From a virus: a stretch of DNA of 64,000 bases. The notes under the pieces were generated by a model, which made no database searches, was not told the DNA's origin, and worked only from the letters and a program-made list of their open reading frames with translations. The DNA lies in the IMG/VR virus record IMGVR_UViG_3300042554_001257, positions 5,489 to 69,488 of that record, one strand, 5' to 3'. The position numbers and the translations under genes are program-made. Below are positions 51,619 through 59,100 of the stretch, in pieces; position 1 is the stretch's first letter, and every line of letters begins with the position of its first letter.

Positions 51619-52056
51619 TTATTTTTCAGTAAATGAGCGAAGCATCCAAACGAACTTACCGTGTGCTTCATTTAAATCATCAAGAAGATTGATCGTTCCT
51701 CTTGACTTCTGTTCCTCTGCTTCAGTAGCAGCATTGGAAAGCATAGTAATTATTTTTTGATGACCATCCATCAAATCACGAATCATTTCCATTTCGGAAA
51801 TATTAGATTTTGCTTCACCAACACCAGAAACCTCTATTACCCTTGACAATGAACTAACTGGTTTTGCACCAAGATACCTCATATGCTCAGAAACACGATC
51901 AACTTCCTCTTGAATAGCAAGATATTGCTCACCAAATAAGTCGTGAATCTGCTTAAAGTCAGGCCCAACAATGTGCCAATGATAAACCCAAGTTTTCTGA
52001 AATAAGACAAAAAGACTTGCCTGAGTGTCAGAAAGTAACTTATATAATTTTTCCAT
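51619..52056 (-). CDS. dps: Dps/ferritin-like protein
   Basis: HWHIVGPDFKQIHDLF...DRVSEH...KFVWML; TATAAATA late promoter at 52074-52081. Confidence 0.88.
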   Translation of the reverse strand: MEKLYKLLSDTQASLFVLFQKTWVYHWHIVGPDFKQIHDLFGEQYLAIQEEVDRVSEHMRYLGAKPVSSLSRVIEVSGVGEAKSNISEMEMIRDLMDGHQKIITMLSNAATEAEEQKSRGTINLLDDLNEAHGKFVWMLRSFTEK

Positions 52057-52083
52057 TATACCAGTTTTTTAGGTATTTATAAG

Positions 52084-52155
52084 TGGGCAATATCGGATTC
52101 GAACCAATGACCGTCTGCGTGTAAAGCAGCTGCGCTACCGCTGCGCCAATCGCCC
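52084..52155 (-). tRNA. trnV: tRNA-Val(TAC), outside the main array
   Basis: CTGC-TT-TAC-AC-GCAG; A73. Confidence 0.92.
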
Positions 52156-54009: not shown

Positions 54010-55488
54010 TCAGAAACGGAAGGTCGTCTGAATCACACCACCATAGTTAGAAGATGCGTTCTTAAATGCCTGATTATTAGAAACATAGAAGATTGCAGGA
54101 GTCACGCTGATGTTATCGCTAACCTTGTAACGATAGAAGGCTTCCCACATCAGAGCGTCTTTGGTCAGCGTAGGTGCGTTGCCAGGTTGACCGATGGCAA
54201 AACCAGAGGCATTACCCTTAGCAAACACATCACTCCACTGAACACCAGCCATCCAAGTTTGGGAGTTGGTAGCAGCATTAGGAGTTGCAGGACCACTCAC
54301 ATAGTTCCAACCATAAGCGGCAGAGACCGAAGGAATGATGCCAGACTTCTTAGGTTGCCAGTAAGCATTCAGAGCATAACCGTTAGAGGTTTGGTTAGCG
54401 GCAAGAGTACCACCATTACCAGCAACACCATTGAAGGTACGAACACGAGTGCCTTCCGTACCATTACGATAACCGAAAGCAATACCGTATTGAGGAGCAC
54501 GATAACCAACTTGTGCCAGAGTATTCAGAGCACCAGAGGCATCAAATTCACCTTTGGTAGAATCAGAACCGTTCTGAGCAACATAGTTCAAGTTAGCAAC
54601 GAAACCTTTCTTACCCGCTTGTGCCCACTGAGCACCGAAACCAGAACCAGTTGCCTTGTTATAGACACCAGGAGCACCAGCAACAGCAAAGAAGTCAAGA
54701 ACATCCGACTTGTATGCAGTAGGAATCCATGCCATCTCAGTGTTACGAACCAGAGCACCAGCAGTCAGGGTTACGCCCTTAGCAAGTGCGGGGAAGCTGT
54801 AGTACAGACGGTCAAGATTGACTTGGTTTGCATAAGATTCTGCCTTATCCAGTTTGAACAGAGAAGAGGAAGAACCGAAAGGTTGCGAAGAGAAGTTACC
54901 AGAACGCAGACGAGTGCGAAGCAGATCCTTACCAGTGAAGGAAGTATCAAAGTTCAGACGAAGATCGTAGTTGAATGCGGTGTTACCAACGTTGGTTCCG
55001 TTAGCAAGACGAGCACCTTCTACACCACCAAGAACGAAGGTTGCTTCACCTTTCAGTTTGGTAGTAGTAGAAAACTGAGTTGCTTGAAGTTGACCAACTT
55101 GTGCTTCCAGTTTATCAACACGACCACGAATAACAGCAAGTTCTTCACGGAACTCAGTAGCAAGACGTTGAAGTTCATCAGTAACTTCGGTTACACGATC
55201 AAGGCAAGCATTCAGAAGTGCAGCTGCCTCATAACGAGTCATTGCCTTACCACCACCATAGGTGCCGTTAGGATAACCAGCAACACAACCATAACGCTCA
55301 ACAAGATTATTGAGTGCCTGATATGCCCAATCAGTAGGTTGAACATCAGACAGTTGAGTGATACTTGAAACCTGTTCCGAAGTGGAATATTGGTTGACTG
55401 CTACCATATTCAGATCTGCGGCATTCGCAGTAACAGGAGCAACCATTCCCAGAGCAACAGGTGCAAGCATCAGTTGTTTGAGTTTCAT
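54010..55488 (-). CDS. som: cyanobacterial outer-membrane porin (SLH + beta-barrel, SomA/B type)
   Basis: Signal peptide; SDVQPTDWAYQAL..LVERYGCVAGYP; FSTTTKLKGE; terminal TFRF. Confidence 0.9.
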   Translation of the reverse strand: MKLKQLMLAPVALGMVAPVTANAADLNMVAVNQYSTSEQVSSITQLSDVQPTDWAYQALNNLVERYGCVAGYPNGTYGGGKAMTRYEAAALLNACLDRVTEVTDELQRLATEFREELAVIRGRVDKLEAQVGQLQATQFSTTTKLKGEATFVLGGVEGARLANGTNVGNTAFNYDLRLNFDTSFTGKDLLRTRLRSGNFSSQPFGSSSSLFKLDKAESYANQVNLDRLYYSFPALAKGVTLTAGALVRNTEMAWIPTAYKSDVLDFFAVAGAPGVYNKATGSGFGAQWAQAGKKGFVANLNYVAQNGSDSTKGEFDASGALNTLAQVGYRAPQYGIAFGYRNGTEGTRVRTFNGVAGNGGTLAANQTSNGYALNAYWQPKKSGIIPSVSAAYGWNYVSGPATPNAATNSQTWMAGVQWSDVFAKGNASGFAIGQPGNAPTLTKDALMWEAFYRYKVSDNISVTPAIFYVSNNQAFKNASSNYGGVIQTTFRF

Positions 55489-55609
55489 AAAAATTTGTTT
55501 TTAGTACTAAACGACATAGTGAAAATCGTGCAAGTAGTTGCGGCACGATTGATCACGGTATTTATCTTAACATTTTCTTTGGGATCAGTCAAGTTTTTTG
55601 GTTTTCATA

Positions 55610-55681
55610 AGCGGAAGACGAGATTCGAACTCGCAACAACCTGCTTGGAAGGCAGGGACTCTACCGTTGAGTTACTTCCGC
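55610..55681 (-). tRNA. trnG: tRNA-Gly(TCC)
   Basis: CCTGC-CT-TCC-AA-GCAGG; U73. Confidence 0.93.
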
Positions 55682-55683
55682 AA

Positions 55684-55737
55684 TGGTGGGGATTTACCCA
55701 GCCTCAGAGTTTCCTCTTCACAGGCACGGAACCCCAC
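55684..55737 (-). ncRNA. candidate small RNA with a kink-turn and GAAA tetraloop
   Basis: GUGGGG...GCC-UGU-GA-AGAG-GAAA-CUCU-GA-GGC...CCCCAC-CA. Confidence 0.55.
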
Positions 55738-55763
55738 GCACTTCACTTCACACGGACTTGTAA

Positions 55764-55792
55764 AGTATATGACATAATGATCATTATGTCAA
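55764..55792 (-). promoter_or_regulatory. sigma70-like promoter containing a perfect 22-bp palindrome
   Basis: TTGACA-17-TATACT; TGACATAATGATCATTATGTCA at 55770-55791. Confidence 0.75.
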
Positions 55793-55793
55793 G

Positions 55794-55866
55794 AGCCCCC
55801 GACAAGACTTGAACTTGCGACAACCGCTTTACAAAAGCGGTGCTCTACCAGCTGAGCTACAAGGGC
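55794..55866 (-). tRNA. trnT: tRNA-Thr(TGT)
   Basis: CCGCT-TT-TGT-AA-AGCGG. Confidence 0.93.
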
Positions 55867-55869
55867 GAA

Positions 55870-56077
55870 TGGGTATCGAGTGCCCGACACCCGCAGAAGA
55901 CACTTTCTGCGATTTTCACTGCATTAGAGGGCAGTGATAAAAGAAAACACCAAACCTTATTTTTCCTGTTCTCAGGAAGGCACCCAAATGGGGTGGGAGA
56001 CCTTGCAAGGGTTTATACCTCCAAAGTTTGTCCAGCGTTTTCAATTTGAAAGAATCGGACATTTCCAATCCTTTCAA
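55870..56077 (-). ncRNA. candidate ~200-nt multi-stem RNA
   Basis: 14-bp hairpin, a multibranch domain closed by 13 bp, three more hairpins; many G-U pairs on the minus strand. Confidence 0.55.
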
Positions 56078-56150
56078 CTGGGGCGGCAGGGATCGAACCT
56101 GCGACCTAGATGTTAACAGCATCCCGCTACTACCGCTGAGCTACACCCCA
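56078..56150 (-). tRNA. trnN: tRNA-Asn(GTT)
   Basis: GATG-CT-GTT-AA-CATC; U1-A72, G73. Confidence 0.92.
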
Positions 56151-56215
56151 ATATTTGTTTTTATGTGTAAGGGAAAGGAGAGCTCTTGGACGGAACCGCA
56201 GGATCACTTTCCCAG

Positions 56216-56286
56216 TGGAGAATAGCAGAATCGAACTGCTAATAAGTGCTTGCAAAGCACCCGTTATACCGTTTAACTAATTCCCC
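56216..56286 (-). tRNA. trnA: tRNA-Ala(TGC)
   Basis: GTGC-TT-TGC-AA-GCAC; G3-U70. Confidence 0.92.
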
Positions 56287-56290
56287 AAAT

Positions 56291-56365
56291 TGGAGGCGGG
56301 GGGTGGAGTTGAACCACCTACCTGAAGCTTATGAGACTTCTGTGCAACCGTTACACTTCCCCACG
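56291..56365 (-). tRNA. trnM: tRNA-Met(CAT), initiator-like 1:72 mismatch
   Basis: GAAGT-CT-CAT-AA-GCTTC; C1xC72; encoded CCA. Confidence 0.8.
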
Positions 56366-56429
56366 ATGATGGATTGAGTGTGATACATCTCATAAGGATG
56401 TAACAGGGACTCAACCTCCAACAATTTAT

Positions 56430-56458
56430 ATAGTAACAAACTTTTGCAAGTTTGTCAA
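56430..56458 (-). promoter_or_regulatory. internal sigma70-like promoter with an inverted repeat
   Basis: TTGACA-17-TACTAT then ATAAAT; ACAAACTT-GCAA-AAGTTTGT. Confidence 0.7.
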
Positions 56459-56459
56459 G

Positions 56460-56533
56460 CGTCCTTTGAGAGATTCGAACTCCCGACACATAGGTTCGTA
56501 GCCTACTGCTCTATTCCACTGAGCTAAAAGGAC
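56460..56533 (-). tRNA. trnR: tRNA-Arg(ACG)
   Basis: GTAGG-CT-ACG-AA-CCTAT. Confidence 0.93.
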
Positions 56534-56536
56534 AGG

Positions 56537-56608
56537 CGAAGGGTGAGGGATTTGAACCCCCATCGCAAGGTTTTGGAGACCTGCATCTTACCATTAGACC
56601 AACCCAAC
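56537..56608 (-). tRNA. trnW: tRNA-Trp(CCA)
   Basis: AGGT-CT-CCA-AA-ACCT; two U-U pairs in the acceptor stem. Confidence 0.85.
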
Positions 56609-56612
56609 AAGG

Positions 56613-56685
56613 TGTCCGTGAGAGGATTCGAACCTCCAACAAATAGATCCTTAGTCTATTGCCTCTTCCATTGGGCTACACGGAC
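56613..56685 (-). tRNA. trnL: tRNA with AAG anticodon (Leu) and a short variable loop
   Basis: ATAGA-CT-AAG-GA-TCTAT; 5-nt variable loop; A73. Confidence 0.8.
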
Positions 56686-56759
56686 TGGTTGAGAAACTAG
56701 GACTCGAACCTAGATAAACTCCTTCAAAGGGAGGTGTCCTGCCATTAGACGATTTCTCA
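56686..56759 (-). tRNA. trnQ: tRNA-Gln(TTG)
   Basis: CTCC-CT-TTG-AA-GGAG; U1-A72; encoded CCA. Confidence 0.9.
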
Positions 56760-56764
56760 ATAGG

Positions 56765-56840
56765 AGTTCAGGGTGGGATTTGAACCCACGGTGAAAGAAG
56801 TTTTGCAGACTTCTGCATTCGACCACTCTGCCACCTGAAC
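56765..56840 (-). tRNA. trnC: tRNA-Cys(GCA)
   Basis: GAAGT-CT-GCA-AA-ACTTC; U73. Confidence 0.92.
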
Positions 56841-56842
56841 GG

Positions 56843-56914
56843 GGTGACGTATGGGAATCGAACCCATCTACCCAGATTCACAATCTGGTTCCTTATCCGC
56901 TAGGATAACGTCAC
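56843..56914 (-). tRNA. trnH: tRNA-His(GTG)
   Basis: CCAGA-TT-GTG-AA-TCTGG; C73. Confidence 0.9.
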
Positions 56915-56915
56915 A

Positions 56916-56989
56916 TAGCAGTAGGTGGATTTGAACCACCGTCCATAGGAATATGAGTCCCGTACTCTACCAGACTGAGCTATACTGCT
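56916..56989 (-). tRNA. tRNA(CAT), Met or lysidine-modified Ile
   Basis: GGGA-CT-CAT-AT-TCCT; A1-U72; A73. Confidence 0.8.
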
Positions 56990-56993
56990 GAGG

Positions 56994-57076
56994 CGGAAGA
57001 TGTTGGATTCGAACCAACGGAGGTTTTACCCTCACGGTTTAGCAAACCGCTGCATTAACCACTCTGCCAATCTTCC
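56994..57076 (-). tRNA. trnS: tRNA-Ser(GCT)
   Basis: GCGGT-TT-GCT-AA-ACCGT; long variable arm. Confidence 0.93.
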
Positions 57077-57190
57077 ATAAAGAAGGATAGTCAGTCCTCC
57101 TACCTTTATTCTCCTTGTCGAAATACTTGTCTCTACGGATTGACTAGATCCTAAAACTTTCTTCCTCAGATGGATTAAGGTTCACCAGAG

Positions 57191-57262
57191 TGGAACCGAC
57201 AAGATTTGAACTTGTGACCGCTCGGTTATCAGCCGAGTGCTCTACCACTGAGCTACGGTTCC
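57191..57262 (-). tRNA. trnI: tRNA-Ile(GAT)
   Basis: CTCGG-CT-GAT-AA-CCGAG. Confidence 0.94.
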
Positions 57263-57374
57263 AAAACTGGGTGAAAGGTCATTTGCTCTTTGCCCTTTCC
57301 ATTCCACATTCAGAAGATTGCGTTTGCAACCACTTTCTTCCTATACCCAGTAAGTTTGAGAGTAAAACTCTCAA

Positions 57375-57448
57375 TGGGAACAATCGGATTTGAACCGATA
57401 ACACCTTGATCTTCAATCAAGTGCTCTACCAATTGGAGCTATGTTCCC
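57375..57448 (-). tRNA. trnF: tRNA-Phe(GAA)
   Basis: CTTGA-TT-GAA-GA-TCAAG. Confidence 0.92.
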
Positions 57449-57451
57449 AAG

Positions 57452-57523
57452 TCCAGAAGGTTGGATTTGAACCAACGTCCTCACCGCCCCAAACGGTGCC
57501 GTCTACCGCTGACTTACTCCTGG
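57452..57523 (-). tRNA. trnP: tRNA-Pro(TGG), second divergent copy
   Basis: CACCG-TT-TGG-GG-CGGTG; C1-G72, A73. Confidence 0.88.
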
Positions 57524-57524
57524 A

Positions 57525-57599
57525 TGGTAGTCTCGAAGGGATTTGAACCCTCGTTTTTGCTGTGAAAGAGCAACGTCCTAACCATTAGACGACGAGACC
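57525..57599 (-). tRNA. trnE: tRNA-Glu(TTC)
   Basis: TTGCT-CT-TTC-AC-AGCAA; encoded CCA. Confidence 0.92.
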
Positions 57600-57795
57600 A
57601 GATGGGAGGGGTATCCCACACGAAGTTACTTACGGATTACGCTTCGTAGCCTTATGAATCCTGCCATCATCCGATGGTGGTTAGAAATCCCTCCCCAATT
57701 CCAGTTCTTGCTACGTCATTCCTTACCTAACTGGCAACATTCAGGATGACGTGCTACAACCGCCAAGGAGGGACACTCCATCGGCAGCGTAGCAA

Positions 57796-57868
57796 CGACC
57801 CTAACGGGATTCGAACCCGTGATACCACCGTGACAGGGTAGCGTGATAGACCACTTCACTATAGGGTC
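57796..57868 (-). tRNA. trnD: tRNA-Asp(GTC)
   Basis: CTACC-CT-GTC-AC-GGTGG; G73. Confidence 0.92.
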
Positions 57869-57872
57869 AAGG

Positions 57873-57963
57873 TGGGAGAGGAGGGAATTGAACCCCCGAT
57901 GGTTCCGATGTAACGGTTTTACAGACCGCAGCCACACATATTGCCAACAGTAGCCACTCTCCC
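57873..57963 (-). tRNA. trnY: tRNA-Tyr(GTA) with an enlarged D arm
   Basis: GCGGT-CT-GTA-AA-ACCGT; D arm GCTAC...GTGGC with a 14-nt loop. Confidence 0.85.
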
Positions 57964-57966
57964 AAA

Positions 57967-58039
57967 TGGGTCTGGTCGGACTCGAACCGACGACTTACAG
58001 GTTAAAAGCCCGCTACTCTACCAACTGAGTTACAGACCC
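57967..58039 (-). tRNA. trnK: tRNA-Lys(TTT), first gene of the array
   Basis: GCGGG-CT-TTT-AA-CCTGT. Confidence 0.94.
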
Positions 58040-58056
58040 ACATAATATAGGATAAA

Positions 58057-58099
58057 TATTCAGTTGTCTAGGTTCTCGGTGAGGGGTGATCCCTCAACC
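58057..58099 (-). promoter_or_regulatory. boxB-like hairpin + boxA-like antitermination signal
   Basis: TGAGGG/CCCTCA hairpin, then GAACCTAGACAACTGAATA, close to cyanobacterial rrn boxA GAACCTTGA(A/C)AA. Confidence 0.6.
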
Positions 58100-58171
58100 A
58101 CTTGATTAGAATACCACCGTTTGGTCTCTGGGGGGAGATTGGTGGACGCTTAGGAAACTGTCACAGGCAAC

Positions 58172-58206
58172 AAAAAAGGGGAGGAAACTTTTGGTTTCTC
58201 TCCCCT
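58172..58206 (-). terminator. attenuator terminator between the leader ORF and the tRNA array
   Basis: AGGGGAG-A-GAAAC-CAAAA-GTTTC-CTCCCC + T6. Confidence 0.85.
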
Positions 58207-58232
58207 GTCTTTTTGCTTTTATGGATTACATC

Positions 58233-58334
58233 TTACATATGTCTATCCATATCCGCAAACAGGGGAGCACCCTCAATATGCCAATAGCGGCAATCGAGAT
58301 TACTAAACTGTTTTGTGGGCATCGGGAAAGACAT
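58233..58334 (-). CDS. 33-aa putative attenuator leader peptide MSFPMPTKQFSNLDCRYWHIEGAPLFADMDRHM
   Basis: Not in ORF track; ATG 58334, TAA 58235-58233; AGGT 8 nt upstream; codons 5-23 all different amino acids; codons 23-26 complementary to the terminator 5' arm. Confidence 0.8.
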   Translation of the reverse strand: MSFPMPTKQFSNLDCRYWHIEGAPLFADMDRHM

Positions 58335-58355
58335 TGTTTTCGACCTAAGTATGTT

Positions 58356-58386
58356 TATTTATAAGACTTTTATTTTAAAAAGTCAA
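58356..58386 (-). promoter_or_regulatory. composite sigma70-like / T4-late promoter for the leader
   Basis: TTGACT-17-TATAAA, where the -10 is part of TATAAATA (gp55 consensus). Confidence 0.7.
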
Positions 58387-58460
58387 CGGGTTAGGTAGGA
58401 TTCGAACCTACGACTCACGCTTTAGAAGAGCGTTACTCTATTCCACTGAGTTACTAACCC
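58387..58460 (-). tRNA. trnR: tRNA-Arg(TCT), upstream of the leader
   Basis: ACGCT-CT-TCT-AA-AGCGT; own TTGACA-17-TATAAT promoter at about 58475-58503. Confidence 0.93.
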
Positions 58461-58506
58461 CTGTGAACCCTCATATTATAAGGTATGAGGAGAACCTTGT
58501 CAACCC

Positions 58507-59100
58507 TCAACCAAGATAAACATTGAAAGAGATAGAAATTCTATCTTCCATACTTTCATTTGCTTCCACATAATGCCACAAATATCCTGGCATCAAATAT
58601 AAACGTCCTTGCTTTGGTTCAAGATTAAGTTCTAACAAGTCAGAACGTCCATCATACAAATTACAATATTGTGACCCATCATTTCTTAAAATCACAAAGT
58701 TACCAGAGTCTTCTGGAACAGAAACATAATAAATGCCAATCAGATCTGCACGACCGTGAGAATGCATTACATTATAGTTATAAGACTTATTAACATTTAC
58801 CCAAAAGGAAAGTTCTCCAACATCAGATCGTAAGTTCTTTGAGATAAGAGTATCTTGTGCGAATACTTTTGCAGCGCCAATCAAAGTAGTTAATTGATTA
58901 AATTGCTCGTACTCAAATGACTTCTCAGTAGTAAAACTGGGAGAATGATATCCATTACGATTTGAATTATCAGTATTTTCAAAAAAATCTTTAACCTGAT
59001 AACATTCTTGGTTTAATATCTCTAAATCAATATTTGGTGAACAAGAACTAATAAAACTTGGAAAAATATCAGCATTAAAAGTTTGATTATAAAGATTCAT
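58507..59100 (-). CDS. putative 2OG-Fe(II) oxygenase
   Basis: WVNVN...HSH...GIYYV...MPGYLWHYV...RISISFN. Confidence 0.75.
   Translation of the reverse strand: MNLYNQTFNADIFPSFISSCSPNIDLEILNQECYQVKDFFENTDNSNRNGYHSPSFTTEKSFEYEQFNQLTTLIGAAKVFAQDTLISKNLRSDVGELSFWVNVNKSYNYNVMHSHGRADLIGIYYVSVPEDSGNFVILRNDGSQYCNLYDGRSDLLELNLEPKQGRLYLMPGYLWHYVEANESMEDRISISFNVYLG

What the first reader, a model, noticed from the sequence alone, without database searches (positions are those of the whole stretch)
58233..58334. Near-pangram leader peptide: 19 consecutive codons for 19 different amino acids directly upstream of the tRNA array
Seen: an unannotated minus-strand ORF (ATG 58334, TAA 58233) encodes MSFP-MPTKQFSNLDCRYWHIEGA-PLFADMDRHM. 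Codons 5-23 give each amino acid exactly once except Val. With equal independent frequencies, the chance for one 19-codon run is 20!/20^19, about 4.6e-7, or about 0.06 expected over all six frames of this window. It lies between a promoter (58356-58386) and a terminator, less than 200 nt before a 20-tRNA array. Established: classical attenuator leaders (trpL, hisL, thrL) repeat codons for one or a few amino acids to sense those aminoacyl-tRNAs. Inference: this is the inverse design, a one-of-each checklist. Shortage or cleavage of any host tRNA (starvation, anticodon-nuclease defence, host tRNA decay in infection) would stall the ribosome and turn on the phage replacement tRNA set. I know of no described phage system like this.
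Basis: partly seen in the sequence, partly recalled or inferred. Interest (0 to 1): 0.97.

Follow-up and report, generated by a model that had tools for sequence, protein, structure and literature searches.

The report
Leader mini-gene before cyanophage tRNA genes
A conserved 33-codon mini-gene, folded together with a transcription stop signal like a classical attenuator, sits at the head of this cyanophage's tRNA genes and may tune tRNA production to how well ribosomes are decoding; its run of 19 different amino acids is a quirk of this one variant.

Summary
The minus-strand ORF 58334-58233 encodes 33 aa, and residues 5-23 are 19 different amino acids. With the window's own composition, 0.004 such runs are expected per window.

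The run itself is not conserved. Only 4 of 150 related loci have one.

The ORF is real. It recurs at 31-34 codons in 150 of 151 cyanomyovirus loci with a complete frame, and in S-PM2 and S-CREM1. Its substitutions are frame-specific, as expected for coding sequence.

It lies inside a covarying long hairpin followed by an intrinsic terminator. Its 3' half can instead pair with the terminator's 5' arm. That pairing is far commoner than in shuffled or synonymously recoded controls.

tRNA-Lys and the main tRNA array follow in 106 of 119 loci.

Best reading (about 0.5): a ribosome-mediated leader-peptide attenuator of the phage tRNA operon that senses the general pace of decoding. It is not a one-of-each checklist.

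I found no published account. This scan has flagged the same family before on other cyanophage DNA, and the same kind of element in giant phages. Nothing has been tested at the bench.

The parts
58475..58503 (-). Sigma-70-type promoter-like site (TTGACA, 17 nt, TATAAT; 12 of 12) ahead of tRNA-Arg(tct). It could feed transcripts into the leader.
58387..58460 (-). tRNA-Arg(tct), the single tRNA upstream of the leader unit.
   Evidence: It is the upstream neighbour in 73 of 119 loci.
58356..58386 (-). Overlapping promoter: -35 TTGACT (58386-58381), 17 nt, TATAAA, with the T4-type late motif TATAAATA at 58363-58356.
   Evidence: Searches give the coordinates. TATAAATA has 0.12 changes per site over 80 unique relatives. 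The motif's meaning comes from passages of PMC2984593.
58335..58355 (-). 5' untranslated leader. It pairs with the 3' UTR in the long hairpin.
58233..58334 (-). Leader ORF of 33 codons plus TAA. Residues 5-23 are the 19-different run.
58226..58348 (-). Long imperfect hairpin (region 1 : region 2) enclosing the whole ORF. The apical loop is at 58288-58283 (codons 16-17), and the start codon pairs with codons 31-33.
   Evidence: MFE -64.3 kcal/mol, z -6.67; pair list; covariation
58255..58267 (-). C-rich strand in codons 23-27 (region 2) that can pair with the terminator's 5' arm and the bases before it (58216-58200). This is the candidate antiterminator.
   Evidence: Its Pro codon is CCC in 81 of 85 cases.
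58220..58251 (-). Small hairpin of the alternative fold, with the stop codon in its loop.
   Evidence: RNAalifold; pairs with changes on both sides; coordinates
58171..58208 (-). Intrinsic terminator (regions 3 and 4): 12-bp G+C-rich stem and U6.
58064..58100 (-). boxB-like hairpin (58100-58077) and boxA-like GAACCUAGACAA (58075-58064). The latter matches 10 of 12 positions of the cyanobacterial rrn boxA.
   Evidence: One search gives fold and coordinates. The boxA consensus comes from a passage of bioRxiv 10.1101/2021.01.08.426015. The element is also seen in S-PM2, L128, L129, L136 and S-CREM1.
57966..58040 (-). tRNA-Lys(ttt), the first gene of the main array, which runs down to 55610.
   Evidence: It follows the unit in 106 of 119 loci.

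Best explanation
The ORF is the leader of a ribosome-mediated transcription attenuator placed in the 5' leader of the phage's main tRNA operon.

Transcripts start at the overlapping early/late promoter (58386-58356), or further up at the tRNA-Arg promoter. Three outcomes follow.
- No ribosome loads: the 5' half (region 1) and the 3' half (region 2) of the ORF zip into a long hairpin, the terminator (regions 3:4) forms, and transcription stops at about 58171.
- A ribosome loads but moves slowly through roughly codons 4-18: region 2 is left free when region 3 emerges. Its C-rich strand (58267-58255) pairs with the terminator's 5' arm, the terminator cannot form, and RNA polymerase runs on through the boxB/boxA-like element into tRNA-Lys and the array.
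- A ribosome moves quickly and reaches codons of about 20-30: it covers region 2, so termination occurs.

The leader has no run of any one codon, so it would report the general pace of decoding rather than one amino acid. This may give feedback from the phage's own tRNAs.

Shown: conservation, coding selection, both folds with covariation, and the position of the element.
Inferred: that termination is regulated, the direction of regulation, and the signal.

The 19-different run is an accident of this variant within a family that is unusually diverse in composition.
For: (1) Family. An independent promoter/UTR anchor gave 36 more loci. Of 151 loci with a complete frame, 150 have 31-34 codons. 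S-PM2 and S-CREM1 carry it.

(2) Coding. Synonymous to non-synonymous changes are 85:156 in the ORF frame, against 39:202 and 35:199 in the other two frames. Stop-creating changes number 0, against 4 and 30. The ATG is invariant, and ORF lengths stay at 31-34 codons.

(3) Long hairpin. MFE is -64.3 kcal/mol with z -6.67. 89.9% of cells are paired, against 38-48% when partners are slid. 80 cells changed on both sides, against 27.6 in shuffles (0 of 500 shuffles reach this). The apical stem is kept by compensatory changes in L136, L128 and L129 while the peptide there changes from CRYWH to YRED.

(4) Alternative fold. 91.3% of cells are paired, against 39-52% when slid. Double changes occur in the small hairpin (7 and 10 sequences) and in the UGC/GCA helix (3 sequences).

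(5) Nascent-transcript model on 99 unique sequences. The terminator's 5' arm pairs with the ORF's 3' half over at least 6 nt in 71-76 sequences with a ribosome at codons 6-14, in 52 at codon 18, and in 0 at codons 22 or 26. The native figure is 74 of 99, against 17 of 297 for a shuffled region 2 and 39 of 297 for a synonymously recoded one. The Pro codon in region 2 is CCC in 81 of 85 cases, against 10% CCC among 644 Pro codons in the window's long ORFs.

(6) Position. tRNA-Lys follows in 106 of 119 loci, and the upstream neighbour varies. A boxB/boxA-like element lies between the terminator and tRNA-Lys in all subfamilies read.

(7) No confident peptide fold (pLDDT 57.8) and no Pfam or PHROG family.
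Against: - No experiment supports any step.
- In full-length folding the terminator stays in the MFE at every simulated stall position, so antitermination would have to be kinetic.
- In the nascent-transcript model, 40 of 99 sequences form the alternative pairing even without a ribosome.
- Covariation for the 9-bp antiterminator core alone is weak. Two pairs changed on both sides, and 283 of 500 shuffles do as well. Related sequences can also inflate the shuffle statistics.
- A sigma-70-like site (TAGACA, 17 nt, TATTAT; 58070-58042; 10 of 12) could give the array its own promoter, although by the usual spacing (recalled) its start would fall inside tRNA-Lys.
- The peptide is well conserved in the main family: D14 and I20 are invariant, and eight more positions are at least 90% conserved. 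That also fits a functional peptide.
- The unit has its own promoter and a strong terminator, like a stand-alone gene.
- There are no regulatory codon runs, which is the hallmark of known attenuators.
- A/U-ending codons are not enriched in region 1 (8 of 16, counted by eye).
- The RNA evidence is one contig from an RNA library that bridges the terminator, and DNA carry-over is not excluded.
Confidence: 0.5

Rival explanations
1. A stand-alone small gene. The 33-aa peptide is a trans-acting phage microprotein, expressed from its own early/late promoter and ended by its own terminator. The hairpin controls mRNA stability or restricts translation to the nascent transcript. Linkage to the tRNA array is inherited synteny.
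For: The unit has its own promoter with an invariant TATAAATA, placed 21 nt before the ATG, like the motif before two other ORFs in the window. It has a strong terminator. The frame shows coding selection. D14 and I20 are invariant, and K8, Q9, C15, R16, W18, H19, P24 and L25 are at least 90% conserved. Gene callers list it as a hypothetical protein, and it is annotated as SCREM1_59 in S-CREM1.
Against: In divergent subfamilies the core changes non-conservatively (CRYWH to YRED) while the RNA pairing is kept by compensatory changes. The complementarity to the terminator arm goes beyond what the peptide requires: 74 of 99 native against 39 of 297 recoded. There is no confident fold and no family. 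A strong terminator directly ahead of about 16 tRNA genes, with no clearly usable promoter between, then needs another explanation.
Confidence: 0.2
2. A structured small RNA or processing element. The roughly 170-nt terminated transcript acts as an sRNA (its unpaired C-rich internal loop as a seed), or the long hairpin is an RNase III/E processing or stability element of the tRNA precursor. The ORF would be secondary.
For: The fold is very stable (z -6.67). It shows covariation. Synonymous sites are strongly conserved, with no change at the third positions of D14, C15, Y17 and H19 among 80 unique relatives (those sequences were selected with a pattern that left these positions free). The C-run is unpaired in the long hairpin. 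There is no Rfam family, so it would be undescribed.
Against: The excess of synonymous changes and the absence of stop-creating changes are specific to the ORF frame. The ATG is invariant and the ORF stays at 31-34 codons in 150 of 151 loci, across subfamilies with only 25-50% peptide identity. A purely non-coding RNA does not predict this.
Confidence: 0.12
3. One reading: a one-of-each 'checklist' leader whose composition is selected, so that shortage or cleavage of any host tRNA stalls the ribosome and switches on a matched replacement tRNA set.
For: The family is unusually diverse. 74 of 81 distinct peptides have 18-20 kinds of amino acid in 31-34 residues; random 33-mers average 15.1 kinds, with P(at least 19) = 0.006. 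The divergent L136 peptide has all 20 kinds. Array isotypes missing from the peptide average only 0.9 per locus. The attenuator layout is supported, as in the best explanation.
Against: The 19-different run is present in 4 of 150 loci. Val is in 19% of loci and Asn in 70%. S-PM2 has 15 kinds and S-CREM1 has 17. There is no positive link between Val in the peptide and tRNA-Val in the array (counts 5, 6, 40, 13). The peptide names on average 3.4 amino acids per locus whose tRNA is not in the fetched array. Stalls at codon 22 or later block the antiterminator in the model. Duplicated residues (P24, L25, F26, M29) are as conserved as single ones. A hairpin-encoded ORF is already 3-4 times more likely to reach 19 kinds.
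Confidence: 0.07
4. A peptide-specific arrest leader. The conserved nascent chain (D-C-R-x-W-H-I-x-G-x-P-L) stalls the ribosome at a defined codon, perhaps in response to a small molecule or factor, and so sets the RNA fold. This works like TnaC or SecM (recalled) rather than by tRNA supply.
For: Conservation is concentrated in residues 14-25. The leader has no regulatory codon runs. It shares the attenuator layout.
Against: The core is replaced non-conservatively in L128, L129, L136 and S-CREM1 while the RNA fold is kept. Much of the conservation is accounted for by pairing of both arms. A stall near codon 24 would cover the antiterminator strand. There is no similarity to any known arrest peptide in Pfam.
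Confidence: 0.08

Closest known systems
Leader-peptide transcription attenuators of amino-acid operons (trpL, hisL, thrL, ilvL, pheL, leuL of enterobacteria; recalled textbook knowledge)
   Same: A short translated leader ORF overlaps a 1:2 hairpin. A mutually exclusive 2:3 pairing competes with a 3:4 intrinsic terminator, and the regulated genes lie downstream on the same strand.
   Different: There is no run of regulatory codons. The genes downstream are tRNA genes, not biosynthetic enzymes. The stop codon lies at the 3' end of region 2 rather than between regions 1 and 2. The element is phage-encoded, sits behind an early/late promoter, and is followed by a boxB/boxA-like element. Regulation is untested.
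Anabaena sp. PCC 7120 trn operon (long tRNA array induced under translational stress; PMC8421152, passages read; PMC10272220, search listing only)
   Same: A long tRNA array in the cyanobacterial world whose expression rises when translation is impaired.
   Different: Control there works through direct repeats at the promoter and a repressor. The words 'leader', 'attenuat' and 'terminator' do not occur in the main text of PMC8421152. It is chromosomal or plasmid-borne, not in a phage.
T-box riboswitches (recalled)
   Same: A terminator/antiterminator switch in a 5' leader that reports the state of the tRNA pool.
   Different: A T-box binds uncharged tRNA directly and has no leader ORF. No T-box or other Rfam family matches here.
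rrn-type boxB/boxA antitermination leaders of cyanobacteria (boxA consensus from a passage of bioRxiv 10.1101/2021.01.08.426015)
   Same: A hairpin followed by GAACCUAGACAA (10 of 12 matches to boxA) just before the first gene for a stable RNA. S-PM2 and L129 have 11 of 12.
   Different: It stands before a tRNA array in a phage and downstream of an intrinsic terminator. Binding of Nus factors is untested.
The same sORF family and the same kind of element noted earlier in this scan (unchecked AI notes: e1-5667269, e1-6072449, e1-5659168, e1-5986212; giant-phage cases e1-5618024 and others)
   Same: The same 32-33-codon unit before cyanophage tRNA genes, read there as a leader-peptide attenuator. 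Giant-phage tRNA blocks behind small leader ORFs are also noted.
   Different: Those notes concern other genomes and are not independent evidence. The giant-phage notes claim that leaders match their arrays, which I did not find here for Val.

Membership tests
Leader-peptide (ribosome-mediated) transcription attenuator | A short leader ORF that is translated, upstream of and on the same strand as the regulated genes | tested here: met
   The ORF is conserved at 31-34 codons in 150 of 151 loci. The synonymous excess is frame-specific and no change creates a stop. Translation itself is inferred, not observed.
Leader-peptide (ribosome-mediated) transcription attenuator | An intrinsic terminator between the leader ORF and the regulated genes | tested here: met
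   A 12-bp G+C-rich stem plus U6 at 58206-58171, with compensatory pairs in relatives. tRNA-Lys lies 131 nt further on.
Leader-peptide (ribosome-mediated) transcription attenuator | An antiterminator pairing (2:3) that excludes the terminator and uses a strand inside the leader ORF | tested here: met
   58267-58255 pairs with 58216-58200. 90.6% of cells are paired. The pairing forms in 71-76 of 99 relatives in the stalled-ribosome model: 74 of 99 native against 17 of 297 shuffled and 39 of 297 recoded. This is computational only.
Leader-peptide (ribosome-mediated) transcription attenuator | A 1:2 pairing that sequesters region 2 when no ribosome is present | tested here: met
   The long hairpin has z -6.67. 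The start region is paired with the ORF end in the full-length MFE of 90 of 99 sequences.
Leader-peptide (ribosome-mediated) transcription attenuator | Clustered or repeated codons for the amino acid(s) sensed | tested here: not met
   No codon run is present. Residues 5-23 are all different. No amino acid is enriched in region 1 in any subfamily read.
Leader-peptide (ribosome-mediated) transcription attenuator | The regulated genes depend on read-through, with no promoter of their own after the terminator | tested here: inconclusive
   A 10-of-12 sigma-70-like site lies at 58070-58042. It overlaps the boxA-like element, and by the usual spacing (recalled) it would start inside tRNA-Lys. Its -10 part is missing in S-PM2, L128, L129, L136 and S-CREM1.
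Leader-peptide (ribosome-mediated) transcription attenuator | Read-through responds to ribosome position or aminoacyl-tRNA supply | not testable with these tools
   This needs reporter fusions, Term-seq or in vitro coupled assays. Only one RNA-library contig bridges the terminator.
T4-type late promoter (gp55-dependent) | TATAAATA / NATAAATA motif a short distance before the gene | tested here: met
   TATAAATA lies at 58363-58356, 21 nt before the ATG, and is nearly invariant. The motif's meaning comes from passages of PMC2984593. Its activity was not tested.
Any described RNA family (Rfam 15) | A match to a covariance model | tested here: not met
   There is no hit in 58041-58386 at E up to 1, apart from a sub-threshold match to SpF41 that spans the tRNA-Arg.
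Any described protein family (Pfam-A, PHROGs) | A profile match | tested here: not met
   0 families at E up to 10. Database members are all named 'hypothetical protein'.

The most novel reading that the evidence does not exclude
The leader is a selected pan-amino-acid gauge. Its 18-20 kinds of amino acid in 31-34 codons are kept so that a shortage of almost any aminoacyl-tRNA (host tRNA decay, anticodon nucleases, poor decoding of phage-type codons) slows the ribosome in the leader and raises transcription of a near-complete phage tRNA set. The phage's own tRNAs would then close a feedback loop.
Probability: 0.15. Interest if true: 0.9.

Novelty: new variant of a known kind. Interest (0 to 1): 0.74.

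Why it matters
Phage tRNA genes have been known for decades, but how phages decide when and how much tRNA to make is largely unknown. If this unit is a leader-peptide attenuator, it shows translation-sensing control of tRNA genes themselves, in a phage. The design has no regulatory codon run, so it would be a gauge of overall decoding speed rather than of one amino acid.

The idea is directly testable in cultured systems: S-PM2 on Synechococcus WH7803 and S-CREM1 on CB0101 both carry the unit. It would bear on two current views of phage tRNAs, as compensation for codon usage and as replacements for depleted or cleaved host tRNAs.

Tried and rejected
- Pfam and PHROGs scans of the peptide found nothing.
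- The ESM Atlas gave only unnamed small clusters with low recognition, which was uninformative.
- A whole-library HMMER search gave three clusters of 32-35 aa, all 'hypothetical protein' or unnamed.
- An Rfam scan of 55000-59000 found no family over the unit.
- tblastn of the peptide against isolated phages found only S-PM2, at E = 0.7.
- RNAalifold on the 79-sequence alignment recovered only the apical stem, the small hairpin and the terminator, because the N-terminal part aligns poorly between subfamilies. I therefore counted pairs on structures that I named myself.
- Full-length constrained folding with a parked ribosome never removed the terminator. I therefore dropped a purely thermodynamic switch in favour of a kinetic, nascent-transcript model.
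- I tested whether the hairpin alone explains the high amino-acid diversity. It explains it only partly: P(at least 19 kinds) rises from 0.009 to 0.02-0.03.
- The AlphaFold2 model had pLDDT 57.8 and no secondary structure. This is weak evidence and was not searched further.
- Sequencing runs: all 12 listed runs held at most 0.09 of the sampled words. In the four runs laid, parts of the stretch had no cover, which shows nothing. Contigs cannot show transcript ends, strand or level.
- Literature: four searches found no account of a leader ORF or attenuator before phage tRNA genes. Supplementary files were not opened and may hold transcript maps of S-PM2 or S-CREM1 that I could not see.
- I considered and rejected a chance ORF (conservation) and a degenerate tRNA (no tRNA or tmRNA call over 58041-58386).
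Full report
**Observation.** The minus-strand ORF from ATG 58334 to TAA 58235-58233 translates to MSFPMPTKQFSNLDCRYWHIEGAPLFADMDRHM. Residues 5-23 are 19 different amino acids and only Val is missing. This is the only 19-residue all-different run in the six frames of the window; the next longest is 16. With the window's own six-frame composition the figures are 3.0e-8 per position and 0.0038 per window. That is rare for one window, but to be expected somewhere in a scan of about 250,000 windows. The promoter-like site is TTGACT 58386-58381, 17 nt, then TATAAA overlapped by TATAAATA 58363-58356. The hairpin-plus-U6 terminator lies at 58206-58171. One correction: tRNA-Arg(tct) at 58387-58460, behind a 12-of-12 sigma-70 consensus site at 58503-58475, lies directly upstream. 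The ORF is therefore inside the array, between its first tRNA and tRNA-Lys (57966-58040).

**A conserved family, but not a conserved pangram.** S-PM2 has a homologous 34-codon ORF at the same place, between tRNA-Arg(tct) and tRNA-Lys. Its start and stop align, and the peptide is MSNISKQIEIIMESDCRYWHIAQSLLLANKDKRM. That pattern fixes the core by construction, so I ran a second scan anchored on the promoter and 5' UTR. It returned 118 stretches, 36 of them new, and showed that the core does vary: DCRDWHI, DCQYWHI, an in-frame loss of Tyr, and divergent forms such as L128, L129 and L136. Of the 151 loci with a complete frame, 150 have 31-34 codons and one (L125) has a 42-codon frame. L111, which has a one-base gap, has no usable start and is not among the 151. 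The 81 distinct peptides of 30-35 aa have all-different runs of 10-19 residues. Only 4 of 150 loci, this window included, reach 19. Val occurs in 19% of loci and Asn in 70%. S-PM2's peptide has 15 kinds of amino acid. The S-CREM1 homologue, annotated SCREM1_59 'hypothetical protein', has 17.

The family is nevertheless unusually diverse. 74 of 81 distinct peptides have 18-20 kinds of amino acid, whereas random 33-mers of the window's coding composition average 15.1 kinds, with P(at least 19) = 0.006. L136 has all 20 kinds in 32 residues. A simulated ORF written on both arms of a hairpin reaches 19 kinds 3-4 times more often than a random ORF (0.02-0.03 against 0.009). That explains part of the diversity, but not all of it.

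**It is coding.** On a tree of 80 unique 460-nt regions, inferred changes in codons 8-33 split 85 synonymous to 156 non-synonymous in the ORF frame. The other two frames give 39:202 and 35:199. Stop-creating changes number 0, against 4 and 30. The ATG never changes. ORF length stays at 31-34 codons across subfamilies with only 25-50% peptide identity.

**It is also a structured RNA.** The transcript 58350-58166 folds at -64.3 kcal/mol (z -6.67, 0 of 200 shuffles as good). It forms a long hairpin that encloses the whole ORF, with the start codon paired to codons 31-33 and the apical loop at codons 16-17, followed by the terminator. On the 79-sequence alignment, 89.9% of cells are paired, against 38-48% when partners are slid. 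80 cells changed on both sides, against 27.6 in shuffles. For example, Ser2 UCU to ACY goes with codon 31 AGA to GGU or AGU. The apical stem UGCC/GGCA becomes UACC/GGUA in L136 and UAUC/GAUA in L128 and L129, while the peptide there changes from CRYWH to YRED. This double constraint explains why several synonymous sites never change.

**An alternative fold.** When the transcript is cut just before the terminator's 3' arm, its MFE structure is different. The apical hairpin remains. A small hairpin (58251-58239 with 58231-58220) holds the stop codon in its loop. A helix joins the C-rich strand of codons 23-27 (58267-58255) to the terminator's 5' arm and the bases before it (58216-58200). On the alignment this fold has 91.3% of cells paired, against 39-52% when slid. 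Double changes occur in the small hairpin (7 and 10 sequences) and in the UGC/GCA helix (3 sequences, where Ala27 to Val goes with G to A in the 3' UTR). Where the two folds compete, one of these changes breaks the corresponding pair of the long hairpin. The 9-bp core alone is 90.6% paired but has little covariation of its own.

I then parked a ribosome footprint at chosen codons in 99 unique family sequences. At least 6 nt of the terminator's 5' arm pair with the ORF's 3' half in 71-76 sequences for codons 6-14, in 52 at codon 18, in 0 at codons 22 and 26, in 22 at codon 30, and in 40 without a ribosome. Controls: 74 of 99 native, 17 of 297 with region 2 shuffled, and 39 of 297 with region 2 synonymously recoded by phage codon usage. 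The Pro codon in this strand is CCC in 81 of 85 cases, although CCC makes up 10% of 644 Pro codons in the window's long ORFs. In full-length folding the terminator always wins, so any switch must be kinetic. By recall, that is also true of the trp attenuator.

**Context.** TATAAATA is almost invariant, with 0.12 changes per site. It is the T4 late-promoter motif, and NATAAATA is the S-PM2 late motif. Overlapping early and late promoters have been proposed for S-PM2 (passages of PMC2984593). In the window the same motif stands 25 and 17 nt before the ATGs of two other ORFs. Downstream, tRNA-Lys(ttt) follows in 106 of 119 loci, and 10-28 tRNAs lie beyond it. The upstream neighbour varies: tRNA-Arg(tct) in 73 loci, Ala in 14, Asn in 9, Gly in 3, and something other than a nearby tRNA in 16. 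Between the terminator and tRNA-Lys there is a hairpin (58100-58077) followed by GAACCUAGACAA (58075-58064). This matches 10 of 12 positions of the cyanobacterial rrn boxA (passage of bioRxiv 10.1101/2021.01.08.426015). S-PM2 and L129 match at 11 of 12, and the element is kept in L128, L136 and S-CREM1. The sigma-70-like site at 58070-58042 overlaps this element. By the usual spacing (recalled) it would start inside tRNA-Lys, and its -10 part is absent from the other subfamilies. I think it is more likely boxA than a promoter, but this remains open. If it is not a promoter, the first 16 or so tRNAs depend on transcripts that pass the leader terminator.

**Expression evidence is thin.** One 912-nt contig from an RNA library (run X2) covers 58086-58386. 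It bridges the ORF, the terminator and the spacer and runs on towards the tRNAs, but DNA carry-over cannot be excluded.

**Testing the checklist idea.** The run is not conserved, as shown above. tRNA-Val is in the downstream array in 45 of 64 non-redundant loci with at least 15 downstream tRNAs, and the peptide lacks Val in 40 of those 45. Asn shows a weak positive link (counts 33, 5, 16, 10). On average the peptide contains 3.4 amino acids per locus whose tRNA is not in the fetched array, while 0.9 array isotypes per locus are missing from the peptide. Truncated loci and ARAGORN miscalls add noise. Codons 19-23 of the run lie on the 3' arm, where a stalled ribosome would hide the antiterminator strand. 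Duplicated residues (P24, L25, F26, M29) are as conserved as single ones. The structure also predicts that loss of the start codon lowers read-through, not that it becomes constitutive.

**Verdict on mechanism.** The best-supported reading (about 0.5) is a ribosome-mediated attenuator in the leader of the phage tRNA operon, gauging the general pace of decoding over roughly codons 4-18. The peptide has no confident fold (pLDDT 57.8), no Pfam or PHROG family and no name beyond 'hypothetical protein'. The RNA has no Rfam family.

**Comparison with what is known.** The element works like the trp/his/thr/ilv leaders (recalled), but it fails one defining feature, the regulatory codon runs, and it controls tRNA genes. 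The nearest case in print that I found is the Anabaena trn array. It is induced by translational stress, but through promoter repeats and a repressor; the words 'leader', 'attenuat' and 'terminator' do not occur in that paper's main text (PMC8421152, passages; PMC10272220, search listing only). Four literature searches found no leader-ORF control of phage tRNA genes. For PMC10690425 and PMC9964418 I read passages only, and neither mentions this unit. Supplements were not seen.

**Earlier notes of this scan.** I had already modelled the switch when I looked up the earlier notes on other genomes. They show that the same sORF family was flagged on other cyanophage genomes and read as a leader-peptide attenuator. 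Similar leader ORFs were noted before tRNA blocks of giant phages. These are unchecked AI notes and I do not count them as evidence. A note on this window (e1-6197412) gave the antiterminator lead, which I tested. Another (e1-6197413, shared absence of Val) does not hold in relatives.

**Limits.** The sequences are related, so the shuffle controls overstate significance. Folding models ignore kinetics. Transcription start sites, termination efficiency and translation are all unmeasured.

Noticed in passing
window 57871-57963 (minus): ARAGORN calls a 93-nt tRNA-Arg(gcg) here. The anticodon-loop letters read like GTA (Tyr), and S-PM2 and S-CREM1 have an annotated tRNA-Tyr at the same relative place. 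Rfam gives only a weak tmRNA-clan hit. This is probably a miscalled class II tRNA-Tyr.
   Followed up: partly
window 56294-56365 (minus): The Rfam tRNA model hits here (46.4 bits), but ARAGORN made no call. This may be one further tRNA or tRNA-like gene in the array.
   Followed up: no
window 58064-58100 (minus): A boxB-like hairpin plus a boxA-like dodecamer lies just before tRNA-Lys and is kept in all subfamilies read. It suggests rrn-type (Nus-dependent) antitermination for a phage tRNA operon.
   Followed up: partly
window 52056-52081 (minus): TATAAATA directly follows tRNA-Val (52083-52155) and lies 17 nt before the ATG of a 145-codon ORF (51619-52056). This is the same tRNA-then-late-promoter arrangement as at the leader.
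   Followed up: no
L001 1443-1799 (S-PM2 S-PM2d160 / S-PM2p160): The annotated 118-aa CDS on the opposite strand overlaps tRNA-Arg(tct) and the whole leader unit. It is probably a spurious call.
   Followed up: partly
L016, L035, L044, L081: In these loci tRNA-Lys lies about 726-730 nt after the core motif, instead of about 245 nt. Roughly 480 nt are therefore inserted between the leader unit and the array. I did not read the insert.
   Followed up: no
window 55764-55792 and 56430-56458 (minus): Two further strong sigma-70-like sites (11 of 12 and 10 of 12) lie inside the array, so its distal part may have promoters of its own.
   Followed up: no
L158 600-640 (S-CREM1): The S-CREM1 unit has TATATATA where the others have TATAAATA, and a protein-coding gene rather than a tRNA lies upstream.
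   Followed up: no
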